Positions 4,493 to 59,924 of a stretch of DNA of 64,000 nucleotides are shown piece after piece; position 1 is the first letter of the stretch, and the number at the start of each line of letters is the position of its first letter. A program made the translations under genes and the position numbers. The DNA comes from a virus (lineage: Duplodnaviria > Caudoviricetes): the IMG/VR virus record IMGVR_UViG_3300010885_031309; one strand, 5' to 3'. The notes beneath the pieces are model-generated. The model saw only the letters and a program-made list of their open reading frames with translations, made no database searches and was not told where the DNA came from.

Positions 4493-4846
4493 TCACTTAT
4501 TTTTCTTGTGTTGTTCTAACTCAGAAATTGATTTCTTTATTGTCTCTGAAAAATTCAGCGCCGCCTGCTTACTCAGTAGCATACTATGCTGCTGTTTATG
4601 AATGCCCTTGAACAATATGTTCCATGCTGCTGCTACACGATCAAGAAAATTATTAAATACGGGAGTCCATAAATTAGCATAGATGATCATTTCAATGAGT
4701 TGAGTATCATCTGCGTTTACTTCAATCCATACATCCAGTGCGTGATCCGCACTTGTACATTCACACTCAACATGATAACTTTTATAAGTGTCTGTGTCAG
4801 ATGTTTGAGAAATTCCCTCTGCGGGTCGTTGATATTCTATGTCCAT
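4493..4846 (-). CDS. Hypothetical protein
   Basis: 117 aa ORF in operon. Confidence 0.6.
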   Translation of the reverse strand: MDIEYQRPAEGISQTSDTDTYKSYHVECECTSADHALDVWIEVNADDTQLIEMIIYANLWTPVFNNFLDRVAAAWNILFKGIHKQQHSMLLSKQAALNFSETIKKSISELEQHKKNK

Positions 4847-18028: not shown

Positions 18029-19414
18029 TTAGACAACAGCATATCGTGGCTGATTGATTGTGTCAAGCATGATACTTTGTGGTGTAAACTCGCCTGCTGC
18101 AAGTATGCTTTTCATAATAGCAGGACTAAATCCACTGACTAGCGCAACGCCACTCTTGTTAAATTCAACCGGAACATTACTGTGACTACTGAGATTCCAG
18201 AATACAATTCGTGGCACGCTGTATCCAGCGGCCTCATACTTGCGTTCAATCATCCGAATTGCGCTATCATTATGTGATGTACACTCGTCAAATTGCATGT
18301 CACTTAAAATCAAAATATACTTTGGCATATCCGATGCTGACACCCGCTGATTGACGGCAACGTTCAACACCGCTTCAAAAGCACCATGCAAATTAGTGCT
18401 CATGCCCCAATCAGCCGACTGTAGTTGGCTGCATTTGCTTAGGATATCTCCTCGCAGGACTTCCAATCGTGTATTCTCACTGAAGGTCAAGAACATATCC
18501 TTGAATGGTCCACGATTCTTGTCTGCACAATATAAACCAAGTGCCACACTGATGTCAATGCACTGTAGATTACGATTTCCACCAACAGGACAACACATGC
18601 TGCCACTAACATCTACCATAGGCAGCACATTAGCATCAGACATATAGTTAGGCAATGCCTCCCATTGTGCTGCGGCAACCTCCGCATCTCCTGCACCAAT
18701 GCTGCGCACAACATCATGTGGGTATACGGCAGCAGCATTTACCTTGGCTTGTCCAGTCTTTAGTGCCGTCTTGTATGCAGTATACGCAACTGAAGCATTG
18801 CGACTAAAAGCCTTTTGATAACGTGCAGCCGCCACGCTTGGCACATGACTAAAGTTGATATTATCCCAATCCTTGGCACACATTTGTGTTTCTACAACCT
18901 TAGTCAAATTGACCAGTGTCTTACGATATTGCTTTGGAGACATACCAAGATGATCGCGCAATTCAATTGCGATATCACCCTTTCTCGGTAGCCACTTAGC
19001 ACACAGAGCTTGATTATCTGCTAGTGCTGCGTCAATCATGTCGTATGCCTTGGTCTTGAATTCCTTAGTTTGGAACACAAGTAGATCATCCCAACGTCCC
19101 CATTCTGGAACATGCGGTAGTACCCGATCCAATGCTTCTGGATGTAGATTTTCCAAATGCAACAGAATGTCACGGAAAATCTGCCGTTCTCCAGCACCAC
19201 CACGAACATCCCGCGCCCATGCAGCAACACGAAGTGCTAGTGTGCGATCAAACTGAAATGCTCGTTCAAACTCTGGGACAATTTGCTTTCCACGACTTGC
19301 GCCGATCTTGTAAAAAAGATCCACCACTGGGTTTGTGGTTGACTCTAGTGCCGCCATACCGTTAGTGGTACGTGCTTCTACTACTGTGCTTTGTACTGCT
19401 TGTGCGAATGTCAT
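18029..19414 (-). CDS. DUF2828 TROVE-like + vWA protein (Ro60-related)
   Basis: RDVRGGAGER, GRWDDL, AKWLPR and MIDAS DVSGSM ... SDMQFD motifs. Confidence 0.85.
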   Translation of the reverse strand: MTFAQAVQSTVVEARTTNGMAALESTTNPVVDLFYKIGASRGKQIVPEFERAFQFDRTLALRVAAWARDVRGGAGERQIFRDILLHLENLHPEALDRVLPHVPEWGRWDDLLVFQTKEFKTKAYDMIDAALADNQALCAKWLPRKGDIAIELRDHLGMSPKQYRKTLVNLTKVVETQMCAKDWDNINFSHVPSVAAARYQKAFSRNASVAYTAYKTALKTGQAKVNAAAVYPHDVVRSIGAGDAEVAAAQWEALPNYMSDANVLPMVDVSGSMCCPVGGNRNLQCIDISVALGLYCADKNRGPFKDMFLTFSENTRLEVLRGDILSKCSQLQSADWGMSTNLHGAFEAVLNVAVNQRVSASDMPKYILILSDMQFDECTSHNDSAIRMIERKYEAAGYSVPRIVFWNLSSHSNVPVEFNKSGVALVSGFSPAIMKSILAAGEFTPQSIMLDTINQPRYAVV

Positions 19415-19429
19415 TTCTTTTTTCCTTTC

Positions 19430-19486
19430 AGATTAAAGCCCACTTGGGCGATTTTTATACTATAAACTAATTGCTGAATTTAATCT
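19430..19486 (-). ncRNA. CAGC-bulge hairpin element E1
   Basis: AGATTAAA-TTCAGCAA...TTTAATCT; abuts the RBS of the TROVE gene. Confidence 0.65.
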
Positions 19487-19496
19487 AAGATATAAC

Positions 19497-19537
19497 AGGA
19501 TGAGCGATACAGATAATTTATTTGCTGTACTCATCCT
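19497..19537 (-). ncRNA. CAGC-bulge hairpin element E2
   Basis: AGGATGAG-TACAGCAA...CTCATCCT. Confidence 0.7.
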
Positions 19538-19617
19538 ACAAAAAATTATACTACACGTTCTTCTGCATTTCAATAACTTTCGGCTATTCTCTCAGTTGTA
19601 GTAGTATAAAAAACAAC

Positions 19618-19762
19618 AGGGTAGTTTTTGCCTTTTTAGTTCAAGTGAGAAGTCTAACTCACCTTAACTGAACGAAAACAAGATACGCTTCGCTGATTTC
19701 TCAGTGCTTATCATGTTTACTTTAACAGTCGTTGCTGTAATAGAATTCGCTGAACCTACCCT
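19618..19762 (-). ncRNA. CAGC-bulge hairpin element E3 (long form)
   Basis: AGGGTAG-GTTCAGCGAA...CTACCCT; shares about 43 nt with E4. Confidence 0.7.
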
Positions 19763-19770
19763 AAAACTCA

Positions 19771-20193
19771 CTAATTTTGTCCTTGATTCTCACCCAGATC
19801 ATTTTCAAAGATATAGTGGCCACCACGCCGACTTTGAACCCAACAGAAACTCCACAACATGTTGTTTTTCATCATGGCTTCAATAATATCTTCGTTGCCA
19901 CTCCACCCCGCGGTGGAAATATTATATTGCCTGAGAGTTTTGCTAGAGTTGTCATCTTTGATCTCTACCTCATGCCATCCCCAGCTAGCAAGATGCCACA
20001 CTGACTTGATGAACTCAAACCAGCCACTGGCATCCTCCCAATCCCAAATTTCAATTGCCCTCAAACAATCACGTGTGGGATATCCATCGTTGTCTAATAG
20101 ATTATTGTCGGCTAAGATACTATCTACTTCAGAAATTACGCTTTCGCGCCTCTGTTGTGTCAGATGACGAAACTCTACAATTTTTTCGTTCAT
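19771..20193 (-). CDS. Conserved hypothetical protein
   Basis: STAGWSGNE...RGGHYIFE motif; 140 aa. Confidence 0.65.
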   Translation of the reverse strand: MNEKIVEFRHLTQQRRESVISEVDSILADNNLLDNDGYPTRDCLRAIEIWDWEDASGWFEFIKSVWHLASWGWHEVEIKDDNSSKTLRQYNISTAGWSGNEDIIEAMMKNNMLWSFCWVQSRRGGHYIFENDLGENQGQN

Positions 20194-20339
20194 ATCTTAT
20201 CCGAGAAATAATCAAATTAACACATAATCTTCTTTACCACAGCCACACTCTGGGCACACAAAGTCATCGGGAAGTGTTTCCCACACGCCTTCTAGCTCTT
20301 CGTTGTGTACGTGATCACATACTACACAAACATGATCCA

Positions 20340-20789
20340 TTATAGTGTCTCCAATACTTCTTTGTACGCAGCGGCATGTCGCTGCTCAACTTTTGTCAAT
20401 GCAGAAAAACGCTTTTCAGCCTTGAGTAGAACAGCCCTAAATTGTTCAGCATGTTCACGACTCTCTGCTGTTTGCTCTGCTGCAATGTTCGCAGCTTCTA
20501 GCTCGCCCTCACGCATTGCCAATGATTGAAATTGTGGATACATTTCAGTGTACTCATATGTTTCACCAGCGATTGCCTTTTCTAGGCATTCCTTAGTTGA
20601 TGGTTTACCAACTAGCAATTCAAGATGACTCCACGCATGTAGAATTTCCTGATCCGCTGTGTATTCAAAATGCTTTGCTACTTCCTCAAAGCCCTCTGCA
20701 CGTGCCAACTTAGCAAAGTAACGATACTTTACGTGAGCCATGCTTTCGCCGGCCAATGCCGACTCAAGGTTTTTTAGTGTTACTGACAT
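20340..20789 (-). CDS. Rubrerythrin (short, ferritin-like)
   Basis: GES.A..KY..FA, QE..HA, GE.YE...MYP, ES.EHA motifs. Confidence 0.9.
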   Translation of the reverse strand: MSVTLKNLESALAGESMAHVKYRYFAKLARAEGFEEVAKHFEYTADQEILHAWSHLELLVGKPSTKECLEKAIAGETYEYTEMYPQFQSLAMREGELEAANIAAEQTAESREHAEQFRAVLLKAEKRFSALTKVEQRHAAAYKEVLETL

Positions 20790-20814
20790 ATATTCCTTTT
20801 TGTAAAAATAAAAC

Positions 20815-20914
20815 GGGATAGTTTTTGTCTTTTTAGTTCAAGTGAGAAAACTAACTCACCTCGTCAGGCGAACCCGATCATCCATAGTTTTATAAAATTC
20901 GCTGAACCTATCCC
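20815..20914 (-). ncRNA. CAGC-bulge hairpin element E4 in rubrerythrin leader
   Basis: GGGATAG-GTTCAGCGAA...CTATCCC. Confidence 0.7.
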
Positions 20915-20950
20915 AAATCTGTTTGTTGTTGCGATTTATGTATTATGTCA

Positions 20951-21160
20951 TCATTTGACTTTGTTTTCAACTGTTTTGGATGTATTACTTGACTTAGTTT
21001 TAACCAAGTTAGCGAGATTCATCCATACCAATCTACTATTGTCTGGGCGATGAACTTCAACAAAATCAACGCCATCAACGCGGCGCCGATTATCAAAGTT
21101 TTCACACACCCACATTTCACCAGTGCGAGGATTAGCAAGAGTTACAGATTTTGTCTTCAT
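20951..21160 (-). CDS. Hypothetical protein
   Basis: 69 aa ORF with RBS. Confidence 0.55.
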   Translation of the reverse strand: MKTKSVTLANPRTGEMWVCENFDNRRRVDGVDFVEVHRPDNSRLVWMNLANLVKTKSSNTSKTVENKVK

Positions 21161-21172: not shown

Positions 21173-21661
21173 TTATGTCGCAATGGCACGAATGCCAACA
21201 ATTTCTTTCCAACGGTCCGCAGCATACGATGCAGCAAAAGCACGTGGCTTTACCAATGGCACTACATTACACATGCCCTTTACATAACCAATAGCTTCAT
21301 TAACAACGATGCTGCTGTTATGCATTTCATTTGGATTAATGTCCAAGTGAACCTCAACATCAAACGGTACCTCTTTTGCCAACGCTAGATATAGATTGCT
21401 GACACGATATACTTCATTCATTAGTCGCATGCGAGGGCGATCAGCACGTTGATCATAATCACGCTCACGATCAACAGCACCGAAGATTTTACATCCATTT
21501 TTGCCATTGACATGTATAACAACCGCAGTAATATAATCAGCATACCAAACATTGTTATACTGTAGTCGTTCACTGTCGCAACCAATGTAGATTTTTGTAT
21601 TGTCGGCCAGATTTTCGCAAAATGCGACAACTTCATCAATGTCAATATGCTTCTTATGCAT
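21173..21661 (-). CDS. RNase H-like YkuK family (DUF458) protein
   Basis: IYIGCDS, RLMNEV, EVHLDINP, FAASYAAD. Confidence 0.85.
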   Translation of the reverse strand: MHKKHIDIDEVVAFCENLADNTKIYIGCDSERLQYNNVWYADYITAVVIHVNGKNGCKIFGAVDRERDYDQRADRPRMRLMNEVYRVSNLYLALAKEVPFDVEVHLDINPNEMHNSSIVVNEAIGYVKGMCNVVPLVKPRAFAASYAADRWKEIVGIRAIAT

Positions 21662-24366: not shown

Positions 24367-24654
24367 TGGTAGGCCCCCTGGGGATCGAACCCAGACTCTA
24401 TCGATTATGCTTACCACTATAGTTTTCACTACCAGATTACCCTGTTTGTGGTCTGGACTATGCCTTCACCATCGCTTTCGCATTAGGTGGGTGATTATAG
24501 TCTCTACACGTTCCCTTGCGGGCTTCGCTCGGCGTTGGCATCAGCATTACCTGTTAAGCGTTCACCGAATTTACACCTTACTACTATACCGTTTCCAGTA
24601 TAGCGACCCATTATTACTTAAGTCGATTGCATTTACCAATTATGCTAGAGGCCC
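24367..24654 (-). tRNA. tRNA(CAT), likely Ile2 (or Met), with group I intron (24410-24620) at position 33/34
   Basis: ATCGA-CT|CAT-AA-TCGAT; P1 GACU/GGUC with U-G pair; R and S elements; terminal G. Confidence 0.9.
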
Positions 24655-29689: not shown

Positions 29690-30361
29690 ATGAGTATTTA
29701 TTGCGTCTACCTAACCATATATCGAGGAACAAAACTTCCGCCATTTTATATTGGATCCAGTTCAGTAGAAAAAGTCCAAAACGGGTATCACGGTTCAGTC
29801 TGTTCAAAACAGTTTAAGGATATTTGGAAATCTGAACTTAGATTTAATCCTAACTTATTTGAAACCAAAATCATTTCAACGCATTCGGATAGAAAAGAAG
29901 CAACACTTAAAGAGCGAACTTTTCAAAAGAAAGTCAATGCGGTTAGAAACCCCCTTTACATCAATCAGTCATTTGCCGCTTATGACAGTTTTACTGACAG
30001 AGATCAATCTGGTAAGAATAATCCAATGTATGGGACTTCCCGAAAAGGAGAAGCAAATCCGTTTTATGGGCAAACTCATACCGAAGAGACTCTTGCCAAA
30101 ATGCGTGGAAGAAAATGCTCCGAAGCAAACAAAAAGTTATACAGTAAACTCAAAAAAGGTATTCCCGATTCTGAAGAAACAAAACTGAAAAAGAGTATTG
30201 CTAAGAAAGGAAAGCCGCCAAACAGTTCCAAAGTGCTCAACTCAGTATCAAAACAGAAGTTTATCTGTATGATTGATACTAAGAAAGAATACACTTATGT
30301 AAATGCTTGTCAGCGGCTTCCTGACATTAAACATCTCTTTTGGACAAAGAAGTTAGGATAG
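29690..30361 (+). mobile_element. GIY-YIG (Seg-like) homing endonuclease with NUMOD3-type repeats
   Basis: CVY...FYIGSS...GYHGS; NPMYG/NPFYG..HTEET; TATAAATA at 29589-29596. Confidence 0.85.
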
Positions 30362-31258
30362 GAACTCTCGAACCCAAGCCAATCGTTCTTGTTCAGTCTT
30401 TGCTGTGTATGCCTCTATGTCTGCTTGTATCGCAGAAAGCAAAGGATAATATTCTTCATCGATTTGCTTCTTAAAGTCTTCACGCATCAACTTGTCAGTC
30501 CGTGGATTACGAGCCACCCACTTATTTGTTAGATAATAAGGGCTCTTAATCTTGAAGGATACGCCGTCATCGGTGTATGCTACATAACCTTCGTGCTTAC
30601 ATTCCTTTGCTAGTTCCTTTAAACGGATCATGTTAGTAGTTACACCTTCTGCCCAGAAGCAGTTAAGTGTATCACGAGCAAAGTCCATTAGGAAATATGG
30701 GTCACGCATGATCTTAGAGCCCCAAGAGTTTTCACGAGCTCCTAGCAAATACATGCCTGACTTTTCTGGTATGATGTGTGGGTCACCTGGATGAACGCAC
30801 TCGAACATAAAAGTCATTCCTAAGCAATCTGCTGTGCCTAACGCCATGCGCCAATCTGTCAAAGGCATGTGTGTTGCCATCATTTCCTTTGCCATATCAA
30901 CAAATGGGCTGTCTGTGCTACCAGTAGTAGACACCAACAGTTCACCGTTATGAACAGTCATAGCAACCATAAAGCCGTTGACCTTACGGAATGCAGTCAC
31001 TTGAGTATCGTCAGCCAGCACTGGTGCAGCCTTTTCGACACCATAGTTGTAAATTTTCTGAAATGGATAAGACACCAAGTTGAAGTCACGATCAACAATA
31101 GTGCCACGACATTCTTCTAAGTAATCATTCCACAGATCATCATAGAATACTCGCTTGGCGTACTTTAACACAAACAGCCCAGGTTGCGACTTGGATTCCC
31201 GCACAGTAACTAGACGAGGATTATTCTCAACATATGCTTTCAAATCTTGCAAATTCAT
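30353..31258 (-). CDS. T4 Rnl1-like RNA ligase
   Basis: PFQKIYNY, KVNGF (motif I), FEC, EGYV...FKIKS. Confidence 0.8.
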   Translation of the reverse strand: MNLQDLKAYVENNPRLVTVRESKSQPGLFVLKYAKRVFYDDLWNDYLEECRGTIVDRDFNLVSYPFQKIYNYGVEKAAPVLADDTQVTAFRKVNGFMVAMTVHNGELLVSTTGSTDSPFVDMAKEMMATHMPLTDWRMALGTADCLGMTFMFECVHPGDPHIIPEKSGMYLLGARENSWGSKIMRDPYFLMDFARDTLNCFWAEGVTTNMIRLKELAKECKHEGYVAYTDDGVSFKIKSPYYLTNKWVARNPRTDKLMREDFKKQIDEEYYPLLSAIQADIEAYTAKTEQERLAWVREFLS

Positions 31259-37037: not shown

Positions 37038-37111
37038 TGGTACCGAGTACTGGTTACGCTCCAGTGATTCACGATTATCAGTCGTGTATTTTACTATTAA
37101 ATTAACCCGGC
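37038..37111 (-). tRNA. tRNA-Ile(GAT)
   Basis: CACGA-CTGATAA-TCGTG. Confidence 0.9.
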
Positions 37112-37846
37112 AATGAATTCTTTTGATAAATTTTTTTCTAAGATAACAATTACTTTAACCTGATTCTGTTCTTGTGCTAGACGAATTTTTTCTGCATCCA
37201 ACTTTGCTTTGTAGTTGTTCTTAGGATCAAGATAAATCCCATGATCCACAAGATAGAAATCTGCAAAATAATTACGTCCATTGTATTTTAATGCCTTAGG
37301 ACGAATCCAACGAACATTCATTTCGGTGAGAATTTCAAAACATTTATATTCATAGGAACTTTGTAAAGTCGTTGAATTTCCAAATGAGTCAATAACTTTA
37401 TATTTTTTGCTTCTACCAGCATTTTCTCTATAACCGCCAAGCCCTCGTTCTTTGGCTTGCTTAGAACGTCTCTCACGTTCTGCACTAGTTATTTCTTTGG
37501 CTATTATTCTACCAGATTCATATCCATTTTTTAATTTTTCAGCACTTCTGCGAATGATGTGATTAGTTTCTTTTGTCTGACCTTTGTTCCAAGAAGTATG
37601 TCCAACGGAATAATTTTTGTAAACTCTGTCTTTGTTTTGAGGACAAGTTCTTGTATGCTGAGTGTGACTAATTTTATTTTTGCAAATTTTACCACAATAC
37701 GCGCAGTTTAGACTTATCGGATCTGAAATTTTATTCCAGATAATTTTGCCGCCCTTGATGATACAACGACTGTGGTGTTTAGATAAATTATTTGTCGTGA
37801 ATTCATCTTTACAATTTATACAACAGTATCTTACTTTATTGTTCAT
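37097..37846 (-). mobile_element. Putative PD-(D/E)xK-type homing endonuclease with zinc-finger N-terminus
   Basis: QSSYE...ADFYL...YLDPK; stop lies inside tRNA-Ile; GATAAATA upstream. Confidence 0.65.
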
Positions 37847-37873: not shown

Positions 37874-37909
37874 GATAAAGAGAATGCTCTACCTTTGAGT
37901 TACGCGGGC
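37874..37909 (-). pseudogene. 5' half of a tRNA gene
   Basis: GCCCGCG-TA-ACTC-AAAGGTA-GAGC-A-TTCTC, then breaks off. Confidence 0.55.
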
Positions 37910-37920
37910 AATTATAAAAC

Positions 37921-37974
37921 AGGATGCTTATTTTTCAATTATAAGTTGAATTATAAGTTTGCTGAACGCATCCT
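37921..37974 (-). ncRNA. CAGC-bulge hairpin element E5 inside tRNA array
   Basis: AGGATGC-GTTCAGCAAA...GCATCCT. Confidence 0.7.
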
Positions 37975-38256: not shown

Positions 38257-38535
38257 TGGTAGGACCAGCGAGGTTCGAACTCGCGACCAACGGATTAACT
38301 TACCACTATAGTTTTCACCACCAGATCGCTCTGTTTGTGGTCTGGACTATACCTTCATCATAGCATTTCTGCCTTAGATGCCCGCCGTCTAGTCTCTACA
38401 CGTTCCCATTACTGGGCTTCGCTCGGTATCGCCATTTTACAGGGTTCACCGAATTTGACGGGTTCTACTTACAAAATTTCTTTTGTAGCACTCCTATTTT
38501 AAAGTCCGCTGCTCTACCGGCTGAGCTATAGTCCC
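38257..38535 (-). tRNA. tRNA-Lys(TTT) with group I intron (38299-38501) at position 34/35
   Basis: GCGGA-CTT|TT-AA-TCCGT; P1 ACUU/GAGU; AAATTCGGTGAA, GTAGAGACTA, TAGTCC; terminal G. Confidence 0.9.
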
Positions 38536-39620: not shown

Positions 39621-39980
39621 CTAGAGTAGCAGACTCTTTCGTCCACTCTCTAGAGCACACTTCATTGCAATTCCCAGCGCTGCGGCACATGGAAACCTAT
39701 TGCCACGTTTGAACTTGAAGCCATTTAGCGTAAACGGCTTAAGAACCTCATCGCCATTCCACCATCCACGTTGGACATAAATATACCCGTCACGTTCAAG
39801 AGACTCACGTAACTTGGTGAATTCTGGATGATCTATAGTACTGATCGCATAACTAGTATTTTCGTAGACTAGCGCATCTACTAATTCATCTGGCGTTAGT
39901 GTTTCTTTATTAGCAAAACGACTAAGACTAGTCTTTTGTGTAACACTAGTTAAATATTCTGATTCAATTGTAAAATTCAT
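39621..39980 (-). CDS. Hypothetical protein
   Basis: 119 aa with RBS. Confidence 0.6.
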   Translation of the reverse strand: MNFTIESEYLTSVTQKTSLSRFANKETLTPDELVDALVYENTSYAISTIDHPEFTKLRESLERDGYIYVQRGWWNGDEVLKPFTLNGFKFKRGNRFPCAAALGIAMKCALESGRKSLLL

Positions 39981-40222
39981 TACGATCTCCTAACATTTCT
40001 ATATACACCTGCTGACATACGATCTCCTTAATAAGAGGAGATTAGATTTTTTACAGCCGACGATTACCCTACACGGCATCATGAATAGTGTAGGCTTTAC
40101 CTGGCATATTTATAAGATAATTGCCAGCATCTAACGAAGGGTGTCTTACCACCCCAAACTAATATATAGTATAAGTATATTATTAATAAGACATATATCA
40201 GCATGTGTATATAGAAAACGAC

Positions 40223-40300
40223 TGGAGCACAGGGCCGGATTCGAACCGGCGGTTTTACGGTTTTGCAAACCGTTGCATTGGGCCTCTCTGCCACCTGTGC
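40223..40300 (-). tRNA. tRNA-Cys(GCA)
   Basis: ACGGT-TTGCAAA-ACCGT; T73. Confidence 0.92.
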
Positions 40301-40303
40301 GTT

Positions 40304-40380
40304 TGGTGGTGACGGGCAGGTTCGAACTGCCTTCATTCAGCCTTATGAGGGCTGCGTATTTCCACTAATACTACATCACC
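40304..40380 (-). tRNA. tRNA-Met(CAT), elongator-type (or Ile2)
   Basis: CAGCC-CTCATAA-GGCTG. Confidence 0.85.
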
Positions 40381-40396
40381 AAATATAAATAACAAC

Positions 40397-41114: not shown

Positions 41115-42220
41115 TTACCATATTTCAACACACTGATGGGCTTCTTTTAAGTCGAACTAACCCCGCACCCTAGTGATTTATTCCTCCCTGGTCAGAGGTT
41201 GTTTTCAATGTGTTGAAATATGGTTTCCTACTTTGCGCGACCGTTCGGAACAATTCAAGACGCACCCACTAAGCACAGTGTCCTTGATTCTCAGACCTGG
41301 GACTCGAACCCAGCACACTATCTTAGTTAGTAAGAGTGCAATCTTATTAACTTACGGTGTGAACCTATCTCTGATATTGCTTTTACCATATTTCAACACA
41401 CTCGTTGCATCAGTCGATAAGAGCAGTCGATACAAAAAATGTGTTGAAAAAAAACTCTATGCTAATTGTATAAAGAACTGTGTTGATTTCTCAACATTGA
41501 TGACAGTATATCAGTGTCCTGATTTATTGTCAAGAAACTGTCGGGTAGCTTAATGTGTGATTTCCACTACCCTGTTACTCTGTATCAGTCTAGGCTAATC
41601 ATTGCTGAAAATTCCTAGCATCAACCTGCGTCACACTGTGTTCAGACAGTTATAACTATAACAGGACCGTGATTTATTGTCAACAACTTTCAGTGATTAG
41701 ATCGAAATGCACTCGCATCTGCTTTTTGAGCCGCGTGTTCTCCGCCCTTGATTCCTAGACTAGTACTAGGGGCGTGTGCCCATTTACACTAGCACTTCGA
41801 TCTAATCACTGAATTTTAAAGAACTACGCTGATTTCTCAACGTTAGAGACAGTATATCAAACTTCTGATTTACTGTCAAGTTTCTGTAGTGATCTTGATT
41901 CAACACATGATACTATCTAGATGATTCAGTAGCTGTATCGGCCGATTATCTACTATCTGTCACCCTACGCTCCCTTGGTCCTTTGGGAATGGCTTACCCT
42001 GTGCTGAATCAAGATCACTACAGATTGTTAAAGAACAGCAGTTTACGCTACTGCCAAACGAAGACCTGTGGGTTCTCAGGCTACCCCACACTAGACGTTA
42101 TACTGACAACTGGGATTGTGCTTCCCGAAACATTCTGTAGCGGCGGTGGGAGTTTGTTGTCCCTCGTTTATGCCGACTACACTCAGACCCTGTTTGTTGT
42201 CAGTTCTCTAGCGTATGAAT
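41115..42220 (-). ncRNA. Cluster of long-stem-closed structured RNAs (about 41116-41224, 41221-41380, 41385-41449, 41545-41650, 41689-41813, 41890-42019, 42090-42211)
   Basis: Perfect 8-18 bp closing stems, no credible ORFs, four dedicated promoters. Confidence 0.65.
41590..41618 (-). ncRNA. Minimal CAGC-bulge element E6
   Basis: CTAGG-AATTTTCAGCAATGATTAG-CCTAG. Confidence 0.45.
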
Positions 42221-46154: not shown

Positions 46155-46424
46155 TGGCTCCCTGTCGTGGGGTCGAACCACGGACCAACAGATTCCGGTT
46201 TGTGTGACTTTCGCCACTCCCTGGACTTTATCTTGACCATAGCATTTCTGCCTTAGGTCCCTGCCGTCAAGTCTCTACACGTTCCCGTTTCTGGGCTTCG
46301 CTCGGTATTGCCATATGCTTTCGCACTTAGGTTTCACCGAATTTGACAGGATTTTCAACTACTGTTTCCAATAGAAGTGTCCATTTCTAAACAGTCTGCT
46401 GCTCTACCTCTGAGCTAACAGGGA
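46155..46424 (-). tRNA. tRNA-Asn(GTT) with Azoarcus-type group IC3 intron (46195-46389) at position 36/37
   Basis: GCAGA-CTGTT|AA-TCTGT; intron ends GTCCAGGGAGTGGCGAAAGTCACACAAACCGG, matching the Azoarcus tRNA-Ile intron 3' end as I recall it. Confidence 0.92.
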
Positions 46425-53916: not shown

Positions 53917-54900
53917 CTATAATTTGCAGCTTTCGCATTGTGATTCATCATCTTGTGTCATTTCTGTTGAGGTAGTAAACTGAACTACATTATCAGCTTC
54001 AGACAACCCTTTCTTAGCGCCCATCTTATTGATCAAACTATAATATACGGTTTTTCCACCCCAGTAGTTATACAACATAAGATTCTTTGCTACTAGCGTG
54101 GCTGGAACCTTATTACCTTCATAATGAGCGGGATTATAGAAAGTATTAGTACTAATACTCTGATCTACATATGCGGCTAGCACTGCCGCAGTCTTTAGAT
54201 AATCAAGACAGTCGTTTTGATCCCACATCAATTGATACTTGTTCTTTAGTCGCTTGTACTCTGGTACGACTTGAACAAAGCTTCCTGCTTTGCTTTCTTT
54301 TACACTGACCAGTTCCATAGGCATTTCAATGCCATTAGTGCTGTTCAATACTACACTAGAACTTTCAACAGGGGCGATTGCGAGAAGCACAGCATTACGA
54401 ATGCCAGACTTTAGTAACCGACTGCGTAACGGCTCCCAATCTAGACTTGGCGTAAAATCGGTTAGATCATTAACACCTTCTGCTCTACGCTCCCACGGGA
54501 AAACACCACGGCCATACCAGGTGTGTTCGCTACGAGCACATGCGCCTCGTTCCTCTGCTAGTTCAATACTAGCTTCAGTTAAGTAATATGCCTGATGTTC
54601 TATAAACTTTTTTGTTATTGCTAATCCTTCAGAAGAACCGTAAGTGAGGTTTCTTTTAGCCAGAAAATATGCTAAGTTGGTAATACCGATACCCAATGGT
54701 TCGAAATCACGATTAGCTAGTTCACTTTGAATGCTTAGAAAGTCTTGATAATTTAGTAGATTACTCAATGAACGAACTAATATACGGCAAGCTTTACGCA
54801 TATCTTGTGGATTTCGAAAAGCACCCCAATTGATACTCCCAAGAGTACAAAGAGCCACTCTACCACCTTCATTAATACATTCTTTTTTTACTATTTTCAT
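53917..54900 (-). CDS. nrdA: NrdA C-terminal fragment (piece 3) with short non-RNR N-terminal tag
   Basis: MKIVKKECINEG + GRVALCTLGSINW...AIAPVESSS...STN...KTVYY...CESCKL. Confidence 0.92.
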   Translation of the reverse strand: MKIVKKECINEGGRVALCTLGSINWGAFRNPQDMRKACRILVRSLSNLLNYQDFLSIQSELANRDFEPLGIGITNLAYFLAKRNLTYGSSEGLAITKKFIEHQAYYLTEASIELAEERGACARSEHTWYGRGVFPWERRAEGVNDLTDFTPSLDWEPLRSRLLKSGIRNAVLLAIAPVESSSVVLNSTNGIEMPMELVSVKESKAGSFVQVVPEYKRLKNKYQLMWDQNDCLDYLKTAAVLAAYVDQSISTNTFYNPAHYEGNKVPATLVAKNLMLYNYWGGKTVYYSLINKMGAKKGLSEADNVVQFTTSTEMTQDDESQCESCKL

Positions 54901-55593
54901 TTATTTTTCCTTATTTTTACAATTTTCAAAATGCCATCTTTTCATCTGACTAATTCCGCCAAATAATCCACAGTGCAGGCATTCTATTTTTTCTCTAGGT
55001 CCTCTAAGATTATTTTTATGAGATTCTGATTTGGGTTTTCTCATATTACGCTTATGCTGTTCAGATTTAGGAACACCTTTGGTAGACTCTGAAATTGAGT
55101 TTGCCATTTTTAGTAAAGAGTTTTTTGATAATTTTCTGCCGGTGGATGATGCTACCCTTTTCATTCTCAGTTCATTGGCTTTTGTATTGCCATATATTTC
55201 TTCATAAGTTTTACCTTTAGAAGAACTCTCAACACCCCACATTGGATTTTTATCTCCAGACATGTCTCTATTGACGATGCCTTTTATATAATTTTCACAC
55301 ATAGACGTATCGCCACCATCGCCAGATTCAGGTCTTATGTTAGCCCACTCATTACTTTCTACTATGTTCCATAGATTGCTGTAATAAATTCCCCATTCCT
55401 TCAATTCTTCCGTAGTCTGACATTCTCTGAGAATCTCAGTAGTAACATCATTACCGTGTTTGTTGATATGATTACACCAGTATGTTCCAGAACCCTGATA
55501 CTTGAACGGGTCTTGGGTAGTTTTACCTAAATACTTTAGTCCAGTAGTATTGTGAGTTTTCTTGTATAGATACGATAATTTATGTGTTTTCAT
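54901..55593 (-). mobile_element. GIY-YIG (Seg-like) endonuclease inserted in nrdA
   Basis: YLY...KYLGKT...YQGSG...WAN; NPMWG; stop abuts piece 3 ATG. Confidence 0.85.
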
Positions 55594-55742
55594 TGGTATC
55601 CCTTGTCAATTTTTCTACTCTATCTATCCATTCAGTTAGATTCCGTAGAATTTCAGAGAGAGAGGCTTCTTATTCCTATTTTCAAATAAATGTTTATTTT
55701 TCTCTCTCCACTCTAAAACTTCTCTTGGTATATAATATTCGC

Positions 55743-56030
55743 TCATACCAATAAGTTCTCAATATCATCATCTTCAGTCAACTCACGAACTTTTTTACGG
55801 GTACCGTCAGTCAGCAATACTTTATGTTCGCCTCTCAACGTAACTTCTTGTCCATCATCTAGCGTCAATTTTAATGTGCCCTCGTCTTCTAGTCGCTGAA
55901 ATGGCTTAGTTGGAAGAAGAATTTCGCAGTTGTGAACGAGAATGTTGTTGGCAAAAAAACAGTGGGTATCTTCAACTGTTATGTCGTATACATCTGTGGG
56001 CTCTACCTGAACTTTTCTAATTTTTATCAT
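55743..56030 (-). CDS. nrdA: NrdA piece 2: split-intein C part (55929-56030) + 17-aa RNR segment (55878-55928) + intein-like tail
   Basis: VYDITVEDTHCFFANNILVHN|CEILLPTKPFQRLEDEG|TLKLTLDDGQEVTLRGEHKVLL... Confidence 0.9.
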   Translation of the reverse strand: MIKIRKVQVEPTDVYDITVEDTHCFFANNILVHNCEILLPTKPFQRLEDEGTLKLTLDDGQEVTLRGEHKVLLTDGTRKKVRELTEDDDIENLLV

Positions 56031-56031
56031 G

Positions 56032-57027
56032 TTATACCTTTATTTTTCCTGGGACATAGTGATCATAAGTTTTAATGAATTCTTCTATGTTGGTTATACG
56101 GATGTTATTAATGCCGTCATTATACCATCGATGTTTGCTTGATTCAATCGACAGTTTTTCTTTTTGTGAGTTGCTTCTGTGATAAGGATTGTATTTTATG
56201 TTAGTTCCAATATGCTTATTAACTTCGTCAACCAGATCGTTGAAAGATTGATAGTTGTTTTCTATCCACTTTAGTGAAATTTTCTTGAACTCACCAAACT
56301 CTTTAGACATTTCTATTTTCAATATGTTCAGTTTCAAGTGCTCATCTTCTGTGGCTTTAGCAACACACTGCCATAATCTTTCTCTTCGATCTTGTGTAAG
56401 CTCTTTGTAGTTGTTATTGTTGGATCCACGTTGTGATTTTCTATTTTCAGTCTTTGTTGGGGATGGCACCCCCTTACTATGATGCACCCATTCTCCAGAT
56501 AGTACTTTTTCATGATTTACTGACACTGATCCCATACTTTCGCGAGTTATAGCGTCAACGACTGGCATCATTCCTCTTCTTGCTTTGCTTATGCTTTCGT
56601 TTCCTATTTTTCTAAGATGTTCCATTTGTGTAAGTAACTCACGATCAACATCTGACAGATTTACTTGTCTAGCATGATTGCTAACTGCTTTAGTAAAGAA
56701 AAACTGTAGCGCCGATCCCGCTGAGTACTCATAACGAGTGCCTTTGTAGATTTCATAAAGATAATAATGACACATCAAGTGCTCCGCAAAAGTTAGTAGC
56801 ACGATATTTTCTTTACTATTTGGATTGCCATCTAAATGGCCCATTGGGCCTTTTCTCTTTCTGTTTTTGAAAAGAAAGTCTGGAACTACATGATGCTTTT
56901 CGTAATAGAAATCTCTACCCTTGACTCTGTTCTCTGAACGAGCGTTATCAATTATTTCTTTATATTTCTGTTTATACATACGAATGTCTCCATACGTATT
57001 TATTTCGGCAATCAAACTTCTGAACAT
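56032..57027 (-). mobile_element. HNH endonuclease between the split-intein halves
   Basis: EKHHVVP...N..ENIVLLT..EH..CH. Confidence 0.85.
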
Positions 57028-59924
57028 AACATGTCCGTCTCTACTAATTCATCTGCTCTAACATATCCGCGATTTTTAGTGAAAATTAAGTGATCGCCTG
57101 TGCATCTGATTATATTTCCTTGTTCATCTTCAACCTCGTACAATTCTGTGACTGTTTTTGTTTTTGCAGCGGCAGTCACGGATTTCCATATTACTGAATC
57201 CTGATCATAGCTCTTTACTTTTGAGTCCGTAAGAGCACCTAATTCCCACCGTTCTACAGCACTTTCAAGAGACATTTTTTCAACTTGTCCATTAGAATGT
57301 AGAAACTCTAATTGACTGTCGCCGGTCAGACAGCACAGATTACTCATGTAAATTGGATCTTCTTCAGTGTCAAATGGTCCTTGATTGATAACATTGTCAA
57401 TATTGACTAGGTAAATACGACCAGTGTCTGTGCGTTCTTTTAGGATGCCATTCTTGAATATCTCTTCAGCAGATAACACTTTCTTTTTCTTGGTAGAATC
57501 TGATTCATACTTAACATATAATTCTTCAAAACGTTCTACATTACGATAGTATGCTTCGTACAAATCTGGCACTTCATGTGGATCAAACAGTGTAATATTC
57601 TCTCCATTCTTATATCGACGCCAGAACAACTTACTGACGACGACACCATAATCTAATTGTCTGACACGGGTTTCTTCTGTGCCTTGGTTATTCTTTAGCA
57701 CAATGAAGTCTTCAAATTGATAATGCCAAATTGGAAGATATACTGTGCAACTTGCGTTGCGGATTCCACCCTGGGAGCAACTACGCAGATCACCATACCA
57801 CTTCTTTAAGAATGGAATAAGTCCGGTATGTTTGATCTCGCCATTGCGAATAGGTGCACCGAGTGGACGAATACGCCCAATCTCTAGACCAATGCCAGCA
57901 CGTTTGCTAGCATACTTTGCCATCATTTCGCCAGACGCGAATATACTGTCTAGAGTATCGTCTGCACTAATAAGTACGCAATTGTGCACACCTACCCCAT
58001 TAACGGTAAATGATTGAACATTATTTACTTGCAAATCATAAACCATAATCCCATTGGCTTTTCTTTTACTTACTTCTCTTACTTTAGCAAAATACATTCC
58101 ATCGACAACTTTAACATATGGATTTTTATTTCTTTTTTTGCTAATACCTTCAAGTCTAGAATTCTTATCTACCTTTCGTAAAAAGTCTAAATTACCAGAT
58201 AGTCCAAGGGTTATTTTATAACTATCATGTCTGGTAATAATAGTCTTCTCGAATCTATCCTTAGATTTAATCCTATTGTTCTTGTATTCATTTATCTTTT
58301 CTGCTGTCACAACACCAAGAACTGGGGATAGATCACACCTAATCATAATCTGTGATATTTGTCGAATTAGGTGTCGGTTAGACATACCAAGACTTAGCCC
58401 ATTTTTTGTAACACAACCGTCGCCACGAATAACTCCTATTAGGAAATTCTCTTGATTTTCGCGGGTTGCTTTCATTACAATATCATGCAAAGTCTTTGTG
58501 TTAAACCCATTCCCAACTAACCCAACTAGCAATGTTTTAAAAGCAGCGGAATGCACTGTAATAGAGGTTGAATTATCTGCTCGAATGTGCTTTGAAATGG
58601 GCAAATCAAAGTTACTTTTAATGATTTGTTCTATGTCTTCTAAAAACATTGTTTCTTTTGAAGAAAGCGTAAATCCTACAGAAAAATCTGTATTAGCATG
58701 ACCTTCCGCTGCATAATAACCCAGCAATCTAAATAAGTCAGAATTTAGAATAACCTCATCTGAACATTTCAACACTTTATCGTCATATTCGCCTGATCTT
58801 TTGGAATGGTCTACGGTTGGTTTCCTCAAGAATCCATCATCATCGACCTGAAGATAATCTAGAATCTGTGGGAATTCAACAGAAATTTTAATTTTCTCTC
58901 GTGGATCGATATATTTTGAATATGGTATTTGAACAAAATCACCCTTCTCAATATTATCTGCACGGGTCCACTGAGGCACACTGTACTTTTTCTTATTAAA
59001 AGACAATGGATGAGATTTTTTTAGTGCCATAATCAAATGGTCTTCGGTAGATTCGAACTCACCATTCAATGAATAAACATTATTAATTTTTACCAAATAT
59101 TCTTGAGGTGCAGATTGTGCTCTCGTAGCAATTACAGGCTGATATGAACCTTCATGTGTTAATACTAAATCTCCTACATTTATGGATTCAATATTTTTTT
59201 CACCATCAACAGTCCACACTCTTTGACCAGCAGGAAAACAACTAGAAAACTGCTTAGTATTAGTGCCAAGACCAGCCAACACAGGTGTAGCCAATGTGAA
59301 ATGCCCTTCACTAGCACATTCATAATATTCTTTAACATACTTTAATCTTTTATCTTTTGGCTCAGCGTGAAATGCTGTAGCTGCTGCAATTGCATAGCGT
59401 ACTTGTGGAGTCTCGTAAATTTTTCCGGTGCTACGATTTTGCACTAGATATTTTTCACACAGTTGAGCAATCGCCGCATATGTATATTTTTCATCTTTGC
59501 TGTGATCTAAAAACAGATCAATAATATTCCATTCTTCTTCAGTATACCAGTCTAATAAATCTGGTGTATACATTCCGTGTTCAACATTTTTCTTTACAAT
59601 ATCCCATAATTTAGATGGGGCGTATTCACCATAGACTTCTTTGCGTAGCATTGAGTTGCGTTGACGACCAGCAACATACTGATAATTTACATTATTTACT
59701 TCAGTGTCTTCACTTTCATCAATTAGACCTACCATAGCTTGAAGCAACAGTTGGTCAATCGTTTCTGTGGTCATATTATCGTGAAACTGAAGTTTAGCTC
59801 TGAGTTCAATCATTGATGGTGATACACCATCAATGCCTTGGCAGCAGTTGCGTACTTGTCTTTGGATTTTTGAAATATCTAGTGATTCTTTATCGCCGTT
59901 TCTCTTGATAATACTTATATTCAT
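57012..59924 (-). CDS. nrdA: NrdA piece 1: ATP-cone + catalytic N-part with LAGLIDADG cis-intein (57981-59240) and C-terminal split-intein N part (57015-57332)
   Basis: IIKRNG ATP cone; KQFSS|CFPAG...VHN|CVLI; MSNLC|CLTGDS...CTGDH. Confidence 0.95.
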   Translation of the reverse strand: MNISIIKRNGDKESLDISKIQRQVRNCCQGIDGVSPSMIELRAKLQFHDNMTTETIDQLLLQAMVGLIDESEDTEVNNVNYQYVAGRQRNSMLRKEVYGEYAPSKLWDIVKKNVEHGMYTPDLLDWYTEEEWNIIDLFLDHSKDEKYTYAAIAQLCEKYLVQNRSTGKIYETPQVRYAIAAATAFHAEPKDKRLKYVKEYYECASEGHFTLATPVLAGLGTNTKQFSSCFPAGQRVWTVDGEKNIESINVGDLVLTHEGSYQPVIATRAQSAPQEYLVKINNVYSLNGEFESTEDHLIMALKKSHPLSFNKKKYSVPQWTRADNIEKGDFVQIPYSKYIDPREKIKISVEFPQILDYLQVDDDGFLRKPTVDHSKRSGEYDDKVLKCSDEVILNSDLFRLLGYYAAEGHANTDFSVGFTLSSKETMFLEDIEQIIKSNFDLPISKHIRADNSTSITVHSAAFKTLLVGLVGNGFNTKTLHDIVMKATRENQENFLIGVIRGDGCVTKNGLSLGMSNRHLIRQISQIMIRCDLSPVLGVVTAEKINEYKNNRIKSKDRFEKTIITRHDSYKITLGLSGNLDFLRKVDKNSRLEGISKKRNKNPYVKVVDGMYFAKVREVSKRKANGIMVYDLQVNNVQSFTVNGVGVHNCVLISADDTLDSIFASGEMMAKYASKRAGIGLEIGRIRPLGAPIRNGEIKHTGLIPFLKKWYGDLRSCSQGGIRNASCTVYLPIWHYQFEDFIVLKNNQGTEETRVRQLDYGVVVSKLFWRRYKNGENITLFDPHEVPDLYEAYYRNVERFEELYVKYESDSTKKKKVLSAEEIFKNGILKERTDTGRIYLVNIDNVINQGPFDTEEDPIYMSNLCCLTGDSQLEFLHSNGQVEKMSLESAVERWELGALTDSKVKSYDQDSVIWKSVTAAAKTKTVTELYEVEDEQGNIIRCTGDHLIFTKNRGYVRADELVETDMLCSEV

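What the first reader, a model, noticed from the sequence alone, without database searches (positions are those of the whole stretch)
18029..20914. Ro60-like TROVE/vWA gene flanked by a family of CAGC-bulge hairpin RNAs
Seen: four elements upstream of the DUF2828 gene (19430-19486, 19497-19537, 19618-19762, 20815-20914) and two in the tRNA region (37921-37974, 41590-41618). Each has a 5-8 bp closing stem starting AGG/AGA/GGG, then an invariant (U/A)CAGC(A/G)A on the 5' strand. Closing stems covary between copies while internal regions vary from about 20 to 130 nt. E3 and E4 share about 43 nt. Established: Ro60/TROVE proteins bind the bulged terminal helix of Y RNAs. Inference: these are phage Y-like RNAs or Ro-binding operators. 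E1 abuts the TROVE RBS and E4 lies in the rubrerythrin leader, suggesting autoregulation and a stress regulon, while E5 is co-transcribed with tRNAs.
Basis: partly seen in the sequence, partly recalled or inferred. Interest (0 to 1): 0.75.

Follow-up and report, generated by a model that had tools for sequence, protein, structure and literature searches.

The report
Phage Ro60-like protein with partner RNAs
A freshwater phage encodes a ring-shaped Ro60-like RNA-binding protein, and five small structured RNAs sharing one conserved "handle" lie near it; the same gene-plus-RNA pairing recurs in very different phages, which points to a phage version of the Ro60/Y-RNA particle that I did not find described.

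Summary
Five of the six reported elements are real (E1 to E5; E6 is not a member). All lie on the coding (minus) strand and share one "handle": (UUU)AG, a 7-bp terminal stem, 3 nt, CAGCRA, a variable insert, an A-rich strand, the 3' stem ending CU, then GUU.

In 80 related viral contigs plus the window I found 181 such elements against 2 in shuffled sequence, nearly all on the gene's strand. In 54 of 80 contigs one ends 11-31 nt before the start codon of the DUF2828 gene. In whole phage genomes they cluster around that gene. The handle also sits beside DUF2828 genes in Ralstonia, Salmonella, Aeromonas, Listeria and Mycobacterium phages. T4 and T5 have neither the gene nor the RNA.

The protein has no Pfam TROVE hit, but its model matches Ro60 structures over its full length. 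Some relatives' inserts are permuted tRNAs (YrlA-like); short ones often mimic anticodon arms. The handle also resembles Dictyostelium Class I RNAs (Rfam RF01414, below threshold).

Binding and expression are untested. The "stress regulon" idea is not supported: the rubrerythrin cassette looks like a local insertion. This scan has already noted the same pairing on other DNA; I reached most of it independently and re-tested it here.

The parts
18029..19414 (-). Gene for a 461-aa DUF2828+DUF7788 protein with a Ro60-like fold (helical repeat ring plus vWA domain with an intact MIDAS motif)
   Evidence: Pfam: PF25043 at 1e-48 and PF11443 at 4e-29. PHROG 850 'RNA-binding protein' at 3e-150. AlphaFold model: pLDDT 79, pTM 0.73. 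The top 13 PDB matches are all Ro60 proteins over the full length (9KOP at E 5e-10 and TM 0.56; 2NVO; 1YVP at TM 0.58). D268, S270, S272, T340 and D372 are invariant in 25 homologs.
19430..19486 (-). E1: handle RNA in the 5' leader of the DUF2828 mRNA. Stem AGAUUAA/UUAAUCU, then AUU-CAGCAA, with an inner GCCC/GGGC hairpin. The 3' stem ends 2-3 nt before the Shine-Dalgarno sequence (GAAAGGA) and 15 nt before the ATG.
   Evidence: Sequence. Fold z -2.0. Orthologous leader elements end 11-31 nt before the ATG in 54 of 80 related loci, many with the same GC hairpin and a GAAAGGAG tail.
19497..19537 (-). E2: the shortest handle RNA (41 nt). Stem AGGAUGAG/CUCAUCCU, then UA-CAGCAA, with GUU after the stem. 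It starts within 1-2 nt of the predicted transcription start.
   Evidence: Fold z -4.65 with 0 of 200 shuffles as stable. The promoter is 8 nt upstream.
19545..19573 (-). Sigma-70-type promoter TTGAAA-17-TATAAT that would drive E2-E1-DUF2828
   Evidence: Promoter scan, 11 of 12 matches. It has the same type of sequence as the 12 TTGACA-N17-TATACT copies in the window. This is a prediction only.
19618..19762 (-). E3: long-form handle RNA (145 nt). Stem AGGGUAG/CUACCCU, then GUU-CAGCGAA, a conserved hairpin GUGAG/CUCAC, an A-rich 3' strand, and GUUGUUUUUU after the stem. It begins 8 nt after the stop codon of orf140.
   Evidence: (D20).
20815..20914 (-). E4: long-form handle RNA (100 nt), a paralog of E3. 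Stem GGGAUAG/CUAUCCC, a UUCG-loop hairpin and the conserved GUGAG/CUCAC hairpin. It lies between a predicted promoter and the rubrerythrin ribosome-binding site.
   Evidence: It aligns with 11 long-form elements of related loci, with covariation in both helices. Its ortholog in the closest relative L001 (3366-3466) follows the same ORF69 homolog.
20942..20970 (-). Predicted promoter TTGAAA-17-(TG)CATAAT about 20 nt upstream of E4
   Evidence: Promoter scan, 10 of 12 matches with an extended -10. This is a prediction only.
19771..20789 (-). Rubrerythrin (20340-20789), rubredoxin-like (20212-20340) and orf140 (19771-20193) cassette lying between E4 and E3. It is probably an insertion and not part of the conserved module.
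   Evidence: Pfam. Homologs lie near the DUF2828 gene in only 1 of 80 related loci, and orf140 in none.
37921..37974 (-). E5: 54-nt handle RNA inside the tRNA array, 6 nt after a tRNA-like 3' end. Stem AGGAUGC/GCAUCCU, then GUU-CAGCAA. The insert can form an anticodon-arm-like hairpin (UUCAA-CUUAUAA-UUGAA), with GUUUU after the stem.
   Evidence: It is the best Rfam hit in its 1-kb surroundings: Dicty_Class_I_RNA at 26.2 bits, E 0.021, full model length.

Best explanation
The window holds a phage Ro60/Y-RNA-like module. The DUF2828/DUF7788 gene encodes a Ro60-fold ring protein. E1 to E5 are members of a widespread RNA family whose conserved 'handle' is most likely this protein's binding site. 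The handle consists of a 7-bp terminal stem, the single-stranded NNN-CAGCAA beside it, an A-rich 3' strand and a GUU tail. The variable insert is the working end: plain hairpins in the window; anticodon-arm mimics or whole permuted tRNAs in relatives. By analogy with Y RNAs, the insert would tether the protein to other factors or mimic tRNA.

E2 and E1 lie in the gene's own 5' leader, and E1 ends at the ribosome-binding site. Bound protein would therefore probably lower its own translation, or the leader is processed to release the RNAs. E3 and E4 are the long form found near the gene in relatives. E5 would be released from the tRNA precursor transcript.

Shown: the family, its structure, its linkage to the gene, and the protein fold. 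Inferred: binding, processing, feedback, and any role in tRNA or RNA surveillance or counter-defence.
For: Structure, tested without bias. Of 87 hits of the 5' motif alone, 79 have a perfect 7-bp partner within 280 nt. There are 181 full elements against 2.0 in shuffles; outside the window, 171 lie on the gene strand and 6 on the other. The 446 unique elements carry 130 different stems.

Linkage to the gene. An element ends 11-31 nt before the ATG in 54 of 80 loci, and 158 of 238 elements lie within 1 kb upstream. In five phage genomes of 162-355 kb, 17 of 19 pattern hits cluster near the gene, with 0 hits for the reversed control pattern. In a motif-first search, 26 of 52 loci with stem-bearing matches hold the gene, against 0 of 27 loci with stemless chance matches. 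Whole-contig searches found 13 more with the gene. The 13 without it are fragments, 12 of them no more than 20% complete and one 62%, and both complete records have it. T4 and T5 have neither gene nor RNA, while RSP15, FelixO1 and LAh_6 have both, close together.

Breadth. The same handle lies beside DUF2828 genes in Ralstonia RSP15, Salmonella FelixO1, Aeromonas LAh_6 (7 tandem copies), Listeria P100 and Mycobacterium phage Lumos.

Link to Y RNAs. Inserts in L053, L063, L060 and Lumos match Rfam YrlA at 31-39 bits.

Protein. There are full-length Ro60 structural matches.

Published lead. The Ro60-like gp130 of the Felix O1-type phage Bas63, which lies directly upstream of its tRNAs, counters the Ppl defence (PMC11482910).
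Against: There is no direct evidence of binding. There is no expression evidence for the elements: the one metatranscriptome run holds only a 229-nt contig at 20014-20242. The protein is not TROVE by sequence (Pfam; PDB sequence searches). The canonical Ro-binding motifs (GGUCCGA; GNCGAAN0-1G, PMC4201824) are not met; only E3 and E4 contain CGAA. No Rfam Y RNA or YrlA hit exists in the window, and the relatives' YrlA hits are below the gathering score. Two DUF2828 phages (Milchi, Vibrio 1.081.O) showed no element with my detection rule. Because the gene sits in tRNA arrays, linkage to the gene and linkage to tRNA arrays are hard to separate fully; only two gene-less tRNA-bearing phages were tested.
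Confidence: 0.65

Rival explanations
1. The elements are cis-acting processing or stability signals of the tRNA-array and early transcripts, for example recognition hairpins for a host or phage ribonuclease or 5'/3' protective stem-loops. On this view they lie near the DUF2828 gene only because that gene lives in the tRNA region.
For: Many copies lie between tRNA genes (E5; FelixO1 and RSP15). E2 sits at the predicted 5' end of an mRNA, and E3 sits at a 3' end with a U-run. The flanks are conserved (UUUU before the stem, GUU after it), as expected for cleavage sites.
Against: T5 (with a large tRNA set) and T4 have no copy. The position immediately before the DUF2828 ribosome-binding site in 54 of 80 loci is gene-specific. 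In Lumos, P100 and LAh_6 the copies abut the gene rather than tRNAs. The invariant single-stranded CAGCAA and the YrlA-type inserts fit a protein-bound RNA better than a nuclease site.
Confidence: 0.13
2. The RNAs act on their own as tRNA or anticodon-arm decoys against host tRNA-targeting nucleases or modification enzymes. The handle serves only as a folding clamp, and the neighbouring protein is functionally unrelated.
For: Of 68 short elements, 17 carry a 7-nt-loop hairpin with the anticodon-loop signature, against 0.1 in shuffles; 24 have 7-nt loops against 2.05. Relatives carry permuted tRNA inserts. An Rnl1-type RNA ligase is encoded in the window.
Against: This does not explain the invariant CAGCAA next to the stem. 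It does not explain the strict co-occurrence with the gene. It does not explain copies without any tRNA-like part (E1-E4).
Confidence: 0.1
3. The elements are only operators (protein-binding sites on mRNAs) for translational control. They are not released as stable small RNAs.
For: E1, E2 and E4 lie in 5' leaders. Leader elements end at the ribosome-binding site in most relatives.
Against: E5 and many relatives' copies lie between tRNAs with no downstream ORF. YrlA-type members in related systems are known as stable RNAs (PMC4201824).
Confidence: 0.08
4. They are DNA-level repeats, such as recombination or homing sites or miniature mobile elements, rather than RNAs.
For: E3 and E4 flank an apparently inserted three-gene cassette as direct repeats.
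Against: The strand bias is extreme (171 against 6). The stems change by compensation while CAGCAA stays invariant on one strand only. Copies lack terminal inverted repeats or target duplications.
Confidence: 0.02

Closest known systems
Bacterial and phage Ro60 (Rsr)-Y RNA particles: Deinococcus Rsr-Yrn1, Salmonella Rsr-YrlA/YrlB, mycobacteriophage YrlA (Chen et al. 2014, PMC4201824; Rfam RF02553), Thermus phage phiLo Ro60-Yrl1/2 (PMC12135203)
   Same: A ring-shaped helical-repeat plus vWA protein is encoded next to small RNAs. The RNAs' 5' and 3' ends pair into a stem, with a short conserved motif near the 5' end. Some members have a permuted tRNA-like domain. Several RNA copies occur per locus. 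phiLo Ro60 (9KOP) is the best structural match of the window protein.
   Different: The protein belongs to Pfam DUF2828/DUF7788, not TROVE, and no sequence-level match to Ro60 was found. The motif is NNN-CAGCAA directly after a 7-bp stem instead of GNCGAAN0-1G or the bulged GGUCCGA helix. Most members, including all five in the window, lack the tRNA-like domain and can be as short as 41 nt. Copies also sit in the gene's own leader. Rfam YrlA scores are 31-39 bits in relatives (gathering score 69) and there is none in the window.
Dictyostelium Class I RNAs (Rfam RF01414; Kjellin et al. 2021, PMC7919456)
   Same: Both are 42-65 nt RNAs with a short terminal stem of variable, compensating sequence. 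Both have a conserved motif ending in CAGCAA next to the 5' half of the stem, a variable middle and an A-rich 3' strand. Both start with AG and end with CUGU. The Rfam model hits E5 (26.2 bits) and all seven LAh_6 copies (19-30 bits). In a 62-kb search every listed hit fell exactly on one of my elements.
   Different: All scores are below the gathering score (41.5). The spacer between stem and CAGCAA is one nt shorter in phages. Class I RNAs are eukaryotic, polymerase-specific (DUSE promoter) and are reported to bind the RRM protein Rnp1A. I could not test whether Dictyostelium has a DUF2828 protein. The likeness may be homology, a shared partner, or convergence.
Bas63 (Felix O1-type coliphage) gp130, a Ro60-like counter-defence protein against Ppl (PhageMaP preprint, PMC11482910)
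   Same: It is described as structurally Ro60-like and as lying directly upstream of the tRNA genes in a Felixounavirus, as does the FelixO1 DUF2828 homolog (38% identical to the window protein). The authors guessed that some neighbouring 'tRNAs' are Y RNAs.
   Different: I did not verify that gp130 is the DUF2828 ortholog. The preprint names no RNA partner and gives no handle motif. The window phage comes from a freshwater metagenome with an unknown host and no Ppl data.

Membership tests
Y RNA / YrlA (Ro60-associated RNAs; Rfam RF02553) | Encoded next to a Ro60 (TROVE+vWA) gene | tested here: inconclusive
   The neighbouring protein has a full-length Ro60 fold, but it belongs to Pfam DUF2828/DUF7788 with no TROVE hit.
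Y RNA / YrlA (Ro60-associated RNAs; Rfam RF02553) | 5' and 3' ends pair into a terminal stem | tested here: met
   There are perfect 7-8 bp stems in E1-E5 and 130 different compensating stems in 446 relatives.
Y RNA / YrlA (Ro60-associated RNAs; Rfam RF02553) | Conserved Ro-binding motif GNCGAAN0-1G (bacteria) or the bulged GGUCCGA helix (animals) | tested here: not met
   The motif is CAGCAA. Only E3 and E4 read CAGCGAA, which contains CGAA, and that variant makes up 9 of 446 elements.
Y RNA / YrlA (Ro60-associated RNAs; Rfam RF02553) | tRNA-like domain (T arm, acceptor-like stem-loop, D arm) and a score above the Rfam gathering threshold | tested here: not met
   There is no YrlA hit in the window. 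Relatives L053, L060, L063 and Lumos score 31-39 bits against a threshold of 69.
Y RNA / YrlA (Ro60-associated RNAs; Rfam RF02553) | Physical binding to the Ro60 protein | not testable with these tools
   This needs EMSA, RIP-seq or a co-structure.
Dictyostelium Class I RNA (Rfam RF01414) | Short terminal stem with compensatory changes, a conserved motif next to the 5' stem, AG start and CUGU end, 42-65 nt | tested here: met
   E1, E2 and E5 (57, 41 and 54 nt) and the family consensus fit. The features are described in PMC7919456. The RNA ends are not mapped.
Dictyostelium Class I RNA (Rfam RF01414) | Score at or above the Rfam gathering threshold (41.5 bits) | tested here: not met
   E5 scores 26.2 bits. 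Relatives score 19-30 bits. E1-E4 give no hit.
Dictyostelium Class I RNA (Rfam RF01414) | DUSE promoter and dictyostelid host | tested here: not met
   This is a phage genome with sigma-70-type promoters.
Ro60 / TROVE protein family | Pfam TROVE (PF05731) sequence match | tested here: not met
   Only PF11443 and PF25043 were found. No Ro60 was found by phmmer or by a profile search against PDB sequences.
Ro60 / TROVE protein family | Helical-repeat ring plus C-terminal vWA domain with MIDAS residues | tested here: met
   Foldseek against the PDB: ranks 1-13 are all Ro60, E 5e-10 to 4e-4, TM up to 0.58, alignments spanning the whole protein. D268, S270, S272, T340 and D372 are invariant.

The most novel reading that the evidence does not exclude
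The phage handle RNAs and the dictyostelid Class I RNAs are one ancient RNA family whose conserved partner is the DUF2828/DUF7788 Ro60-like protein, a family that also has eukaryotic members. Class I RNAs, held to be unique to social amoebae and without a known mechanism, would then be the 'Y RNAs' of a second Ro-like lineage. In phages, the variable inserts (anticodon-arm and tRNA mimics) would aim this particle at tRNA-directed host defences.
Probability: 0.12. Interest if true: 0.9.

Novelty: new variant of a known kind. Interest (0 to 1): 0.68.

Why it matters
Ro60/Y-RNA particles are known from animals, some bacteria and a few phages. Here a different, very common phage protein family is tied to a concrete, searchable RNA partner family with a simple signature. 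The protein family has 711 phage records in one collection and is annotated only as DUF2828 or 'RNA-binding protein'.

This gives testable candidates for the RNA cofactors of a protein type reported to defeat a bacterial defence system (Ppl). It explains many unannotated gaps in phage tRNA regions. The anticodon-arm and tRNA mimics suggest a link to tRNA surveillance or to tRNA-targeting immunity. The likeness to Dictyostelium Class I RNAs, if it reflects common descent or a shared partner, would give a first mechanistic lead for an orphan eukaryotic RNA class.

Tried and rejected
- **Rfam at gathering thresholds on the whole window:** only tRNAs and group I introns were found.
- **Rfam at E<=10 on 19380-21000:** nothing relevant.
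- **Short motif alone:** TCAGCRAA is not enriched.
- **Gapped pattern:** a pattern joining the 5' and 3' parts of E3/E4 found nothing, because the gap limit was too small.
- **Sequence searches against the PDB:** neither the single protein nor the 25-sequence profile found Ro60. Only the fold search did.
- **Own genome:** none is held for the window.
- **E6:** rejected as a member.
- **Covariance model R1:** built from short elements, it scores the long forms E3 and E4 poorly (about 14 bits) because of their inserts, so it undercounts long members.
- **Pair counts:** they show 100% pairing, but on sequences chosen for having a stem. I do not use them as independent evidence and rely instead.
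- **Expression:** one lake metatranscriptome holds only a 229-nt contig inside the rubredoxin/orf140 region. This shows nothing about the elements.
- **Dictyostelium DUF2828 protein:** the Swiss-Prot model library shows none among the hits, and organism names are masked in the cluster library. The Class I pull-down protein DDB_G0281243 (bioRxiv 10.1101/2020.04.05.026054) could not be looked up.
- **Terminator reading:** most elements lack a U-run after the stem.
- **Stress-regulon reading:** rejected.
Full report
**What is there.**

All genes in this part of the window run on the minus strand. The ORF at 18029-19414 encodes a 461-aa protein with Pfam DUF7788 (1e-48) and DUF2828 (4e-29) and no TROVE hit. 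Read on the minus strand, five of the six reported elements share one architecture:
- a U-rich 5' flank;
- a 7-8 bp terminal stem that starts AG or GG;
- three nucleotides;
- CAGCAA (E1, E2, E5) or CAGCGA (E3, E4);
- a variable insert of about 20-130 nt;
- an A-rich 3' strand;
- the complementary 3' stem ending CU or CC;
- then GUU (GAAAGG in E1).

The 17-mer AGGRTNNGTTCAGCRAA with at most one mismatch occurs four times in the window, all on the minus strand. The bare 8-mer is not enriched. E3 and E4 are paralogs: they share 57 nt at 88% identity at the 3' side plus the 5' handle. E6 has only a 5-bp stem at the wrong spacing and is not found by the covariance model. I reject it.

**Is it more than chance?**

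I fetched 80 viral contigs that encode a homolog of the protein at 53-73% identity.
- A search for the 5' motif alone, with no stem required, gave 87 hits. Of these, 79 had a perfect 7-bp partner within 280 nt, nearly all with seven Watson-Crick pairs.
- With the full rule there are 181 elements against 2.0 in shuffled sequence. Outside the window, 171 lie on the gene strand and 6 on the other.
CAGC and the final A were fixed by the search pattern; the position before that A, free to be A or G, reads A in 96%. A G follows the stem in 91%.
- The pair counts come from sequences chosen for having a stem, so I do not count them as a test.

**Linkage to the gene.**

- In 54 of 80 loci an element ends 11-31 nt before the ATG of the DUF2828 gene, often directly followed by GAAAGGAG. 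This is the position of E1 here.
- 158 of 238 elements lie within 1 kb upstream, and 17 lie in all the downstream sequence.
- In five phage genomes of 162-355 kb a handle pattern gave 19 hits, all on the gene strand. Seventeen cluster within a few kb of the gene, and a reversed control pattern gave none.
- In a search that started from the motif alone, 81 of 108 matches had a perfect stem. Of the 52 loci with such matches, 26 held the gene inside the fetched stretch, against 0 of 27 loci with only stemless chance matches.
- Thirteen of the remaining 26 contigs have the gene elsewhere. The other 13 are fragments, 12 of them no more than 20% complete and one 62%. Both complete records have the gene.
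- T4 and T5 carry tRNA genes but no DUF2828 gene, and they have no model hit. RSP15, FelixO1 and LAh_6 have the gene, and their model hits lie next to it, apart from one LAh_6 hit about 40 kb away.

**Breadth.**

The same handle lies beside the DUF2828 gene in the following phages:
- Ralstonia phage RSP15: five copies among tRNAs;
- Salmonella phage FelixO1: four copies among the downstream tRNAs;
- Aeromonas phage LAh_6: seven tandem copies upstream, the last ending at the ribosome-binding site;
- Listeria phage P100: three copies upstream;
- Mycobacterium phage Lumos: three copies just downstream.

I saw none in Pseudomonas phage Milchi or Vibrio phage 1.081.O, and perhaps one in KVP40. The protein family is common: 711 phage records match it.

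**The protein.**

An AlphaFold model built on 25 homologs (pLDDT 79, pTM 0.73) matches Ro60 structures over its whole length. Ranks 1-13 in the PDB are all Ro60: Thermus phage phiLo 9KOP at E 5e-10, Deinococcus 2NVO, and Xenopus and human Ro60, with TM up to 0.58. In the Swiss-Prot model library the first ranks are Ro60 proteins and telomerase p80. The MIDAS residues of the vWA domain are invariant. Sequence-only searches do not see this relationship.

**Relation to known RNAs.**

No Rfam family reaches threshold on the elements. There are two sub-threshold likenesses.

1. *YrlA.* In some relatives the insert is a circularly permuted tRNA: an anticodon-like arm, a T arm, a closed acceptor stem and a D arm. 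These match YrlA at 31-39 bits against a gathering score of 69 (L053 3854-3969, L063 33-163, L060 2376-2490, Lumos 4539-4666). The published bacterial Ro motif is GNCGAAN0-1G (PMC4201824). The handle here is different, and only E3 and E4 contain CGAA.

2. *Dictyostelium Class I RNA.* The Rfam model RF01414 hits E5 at 26.2 bits, the best hit in its 1-kb surroundings. It hits all seven LAh_6 copies at 19-30 bits. In a 62-kb search, each of its seven listed hits fell exactly on one of my elements. Its consensus is G-stem, CUUACAGCAA, a variable part, an A-rich part, stem, UG. The published description is: start AAG, end CUGU, a short compensating stem, an 11-nt motif beside the 5' stem, 42-65 nt (PMC7919456). 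This is the same architecture with a spacer one nucleotide longer. I noticed this before consulting earlier notes of this scan, which report the same resemblance on other genomes. Whether it reflects descent, a shared partner or convergence is open. I could not test whether Dictyostelium encodes a DUF2828 protein.

**Inserts.**

Among 68 short elements, 24 have a hairpin with a 7-nt loop (2.05 expected from shuffles). Seventeen carry the anticodon-loop signature of pyrimidine-U-NNN-purine (0.1 expected), with loops such as CUUUUAA, CUUCUAA and CUUGUAA. E5 can form UUCAA-CUUAUAA-UUGAA, although its minimum-energy fold is a different hairpin. The long form (E3, E4 and 11 relatives) has a conserved hairpin with compensating outer pairs and a conserved A-rich 3' strand, AAAAAGUAG...AAC.

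**Layout in the window.**

The predicted arrangement reads as follows along the minus strand:
- a predicted promoter at 20970-20942;
- E4;
- rubrerythrin, a rubredoxin-like ORF and orf140;
- E3, which ends in a U-run;
- a promoter at 19573-19545;
- E2, which starts within 1-2 nt of the predicted transcription start;
- E1, which ends 2-3 nt before the Shine-Dalgarno sequence;
- the DUF2828 gene.

In the closest relative (L001) the order is the PF04308 gene, ORF69, one long-form element, a leader element, then DUF2828. There is no rubrerythrin cassette. Rubrerythrin is near the gene in only 1 of 80 loci. The cassette therefore looks like a local insertion flanked by a duplicated element, and the 'stress regulon' reading is not supported.

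**Mechanism.**

The best-supported reading is a Ro60/Y-RNA-like particle: the handle binds the ring protein and the insert is the effector part. The leader copies probably give feedback on translation or are processed out of the mRNA. These steps are inferences from anatomy, from linkage, and from what is established for Ro60 and Y RNAs.

A preprint reports that the Ro60-like gp130 of the Felix O1-type phage Bas63 counters the Ppl defence system, and guesses that neighbouring 'tRNAs' are Y RNAs (PMC11482910). I did not verify orthology, but the FelixO1 homolog fits the description. The window also encodes an Rnl1-type RNA ligase. This fits a tRNA-damage theme but proves nothing.

**Limits.**

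- Neither binding nor transcription is shown. The only RNA run with this phage holds a single 229-nt contig elsewhere in the region.
- The negative control comprises two phages.
- My detection rule may miss diverged handles.
- I found no paper describing this RNA family in the searchable library, but that library is incomplete.

Noticed in passing
window 21173-21661 (-): A PF04308 RNase H-like gene is a recurrent neighbour of the DUF2828 gene. It lies upstream in 22 of 80 related loci and directly downstream in KVP40 and Vibrio phage 1.081.O. It may belong to the same functional module.
   Followed up: partly
window 19771-20789 (-): The rubrerythrin, rubredoxin-like and orf140 genes lie between the paralogous elements E4 and E3 and are absent from 79 of 80 related loci. 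This looks like a cassette insertion accompanied by duplication of the long-form RNA element.
   Followed up: partly
window 30353-31258 (-): An Rnl1-type RNA ligase (phrog_562, 6.7e-53), the enzyme type T4 uses to repair anticodon-nuclease-cut tRNA, lies 11 kb from the Ro60-like gene.
   Followed up: no
window 38329-38511, 46202-46402, 24410-24478 (-): Two group I introns (Rfam 62-63 bits) and a third partial copy lie in the tRNA region. There are homing-endonuclease-like ORFs nearby (for example 37110-37845), next to a split or duplicated tRNA 5' half at 37880-37910.
   Followed up: no
window 9746-42757, 12 sites (minus strand): Twelve copies of a strong early-type promoter, TTGACA-N17-TATACT with conserved flanks, all drive minus-strand transcription.
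   Followed up: no
L024 1843-2271; L086 (Listeria phage P100) 1459-2010: A GOLLD RNA (196 bits) and a ROOL-like RNA (86 bits, below the gathering score of 99) lie in the same tRNA and handle-RNA neighbourhoods as the DUF2828 gene in other phages.
   Followed up: no
window 19428-19470: A related strain in a metagenome run (X3, about 97% identical) replaces the inside of E1 with 73 other letters while keeping the flanks. This fits a conserved handle with a free insert.
   Followed up: no
window 53917-59924 (-): The ribonucleotide reductase large subunit is split into two ORFs (57012-59924 and 53917-54900), with a homing endonuclease gene (56032-57027) between them.
   Followed up: no
window 39978-40396 (-): ARAGORN calls a permuted tmRNA that overlaps two ordinary tRNA genes (Cys, Met). 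This is probably a false call.
   Followed up: no
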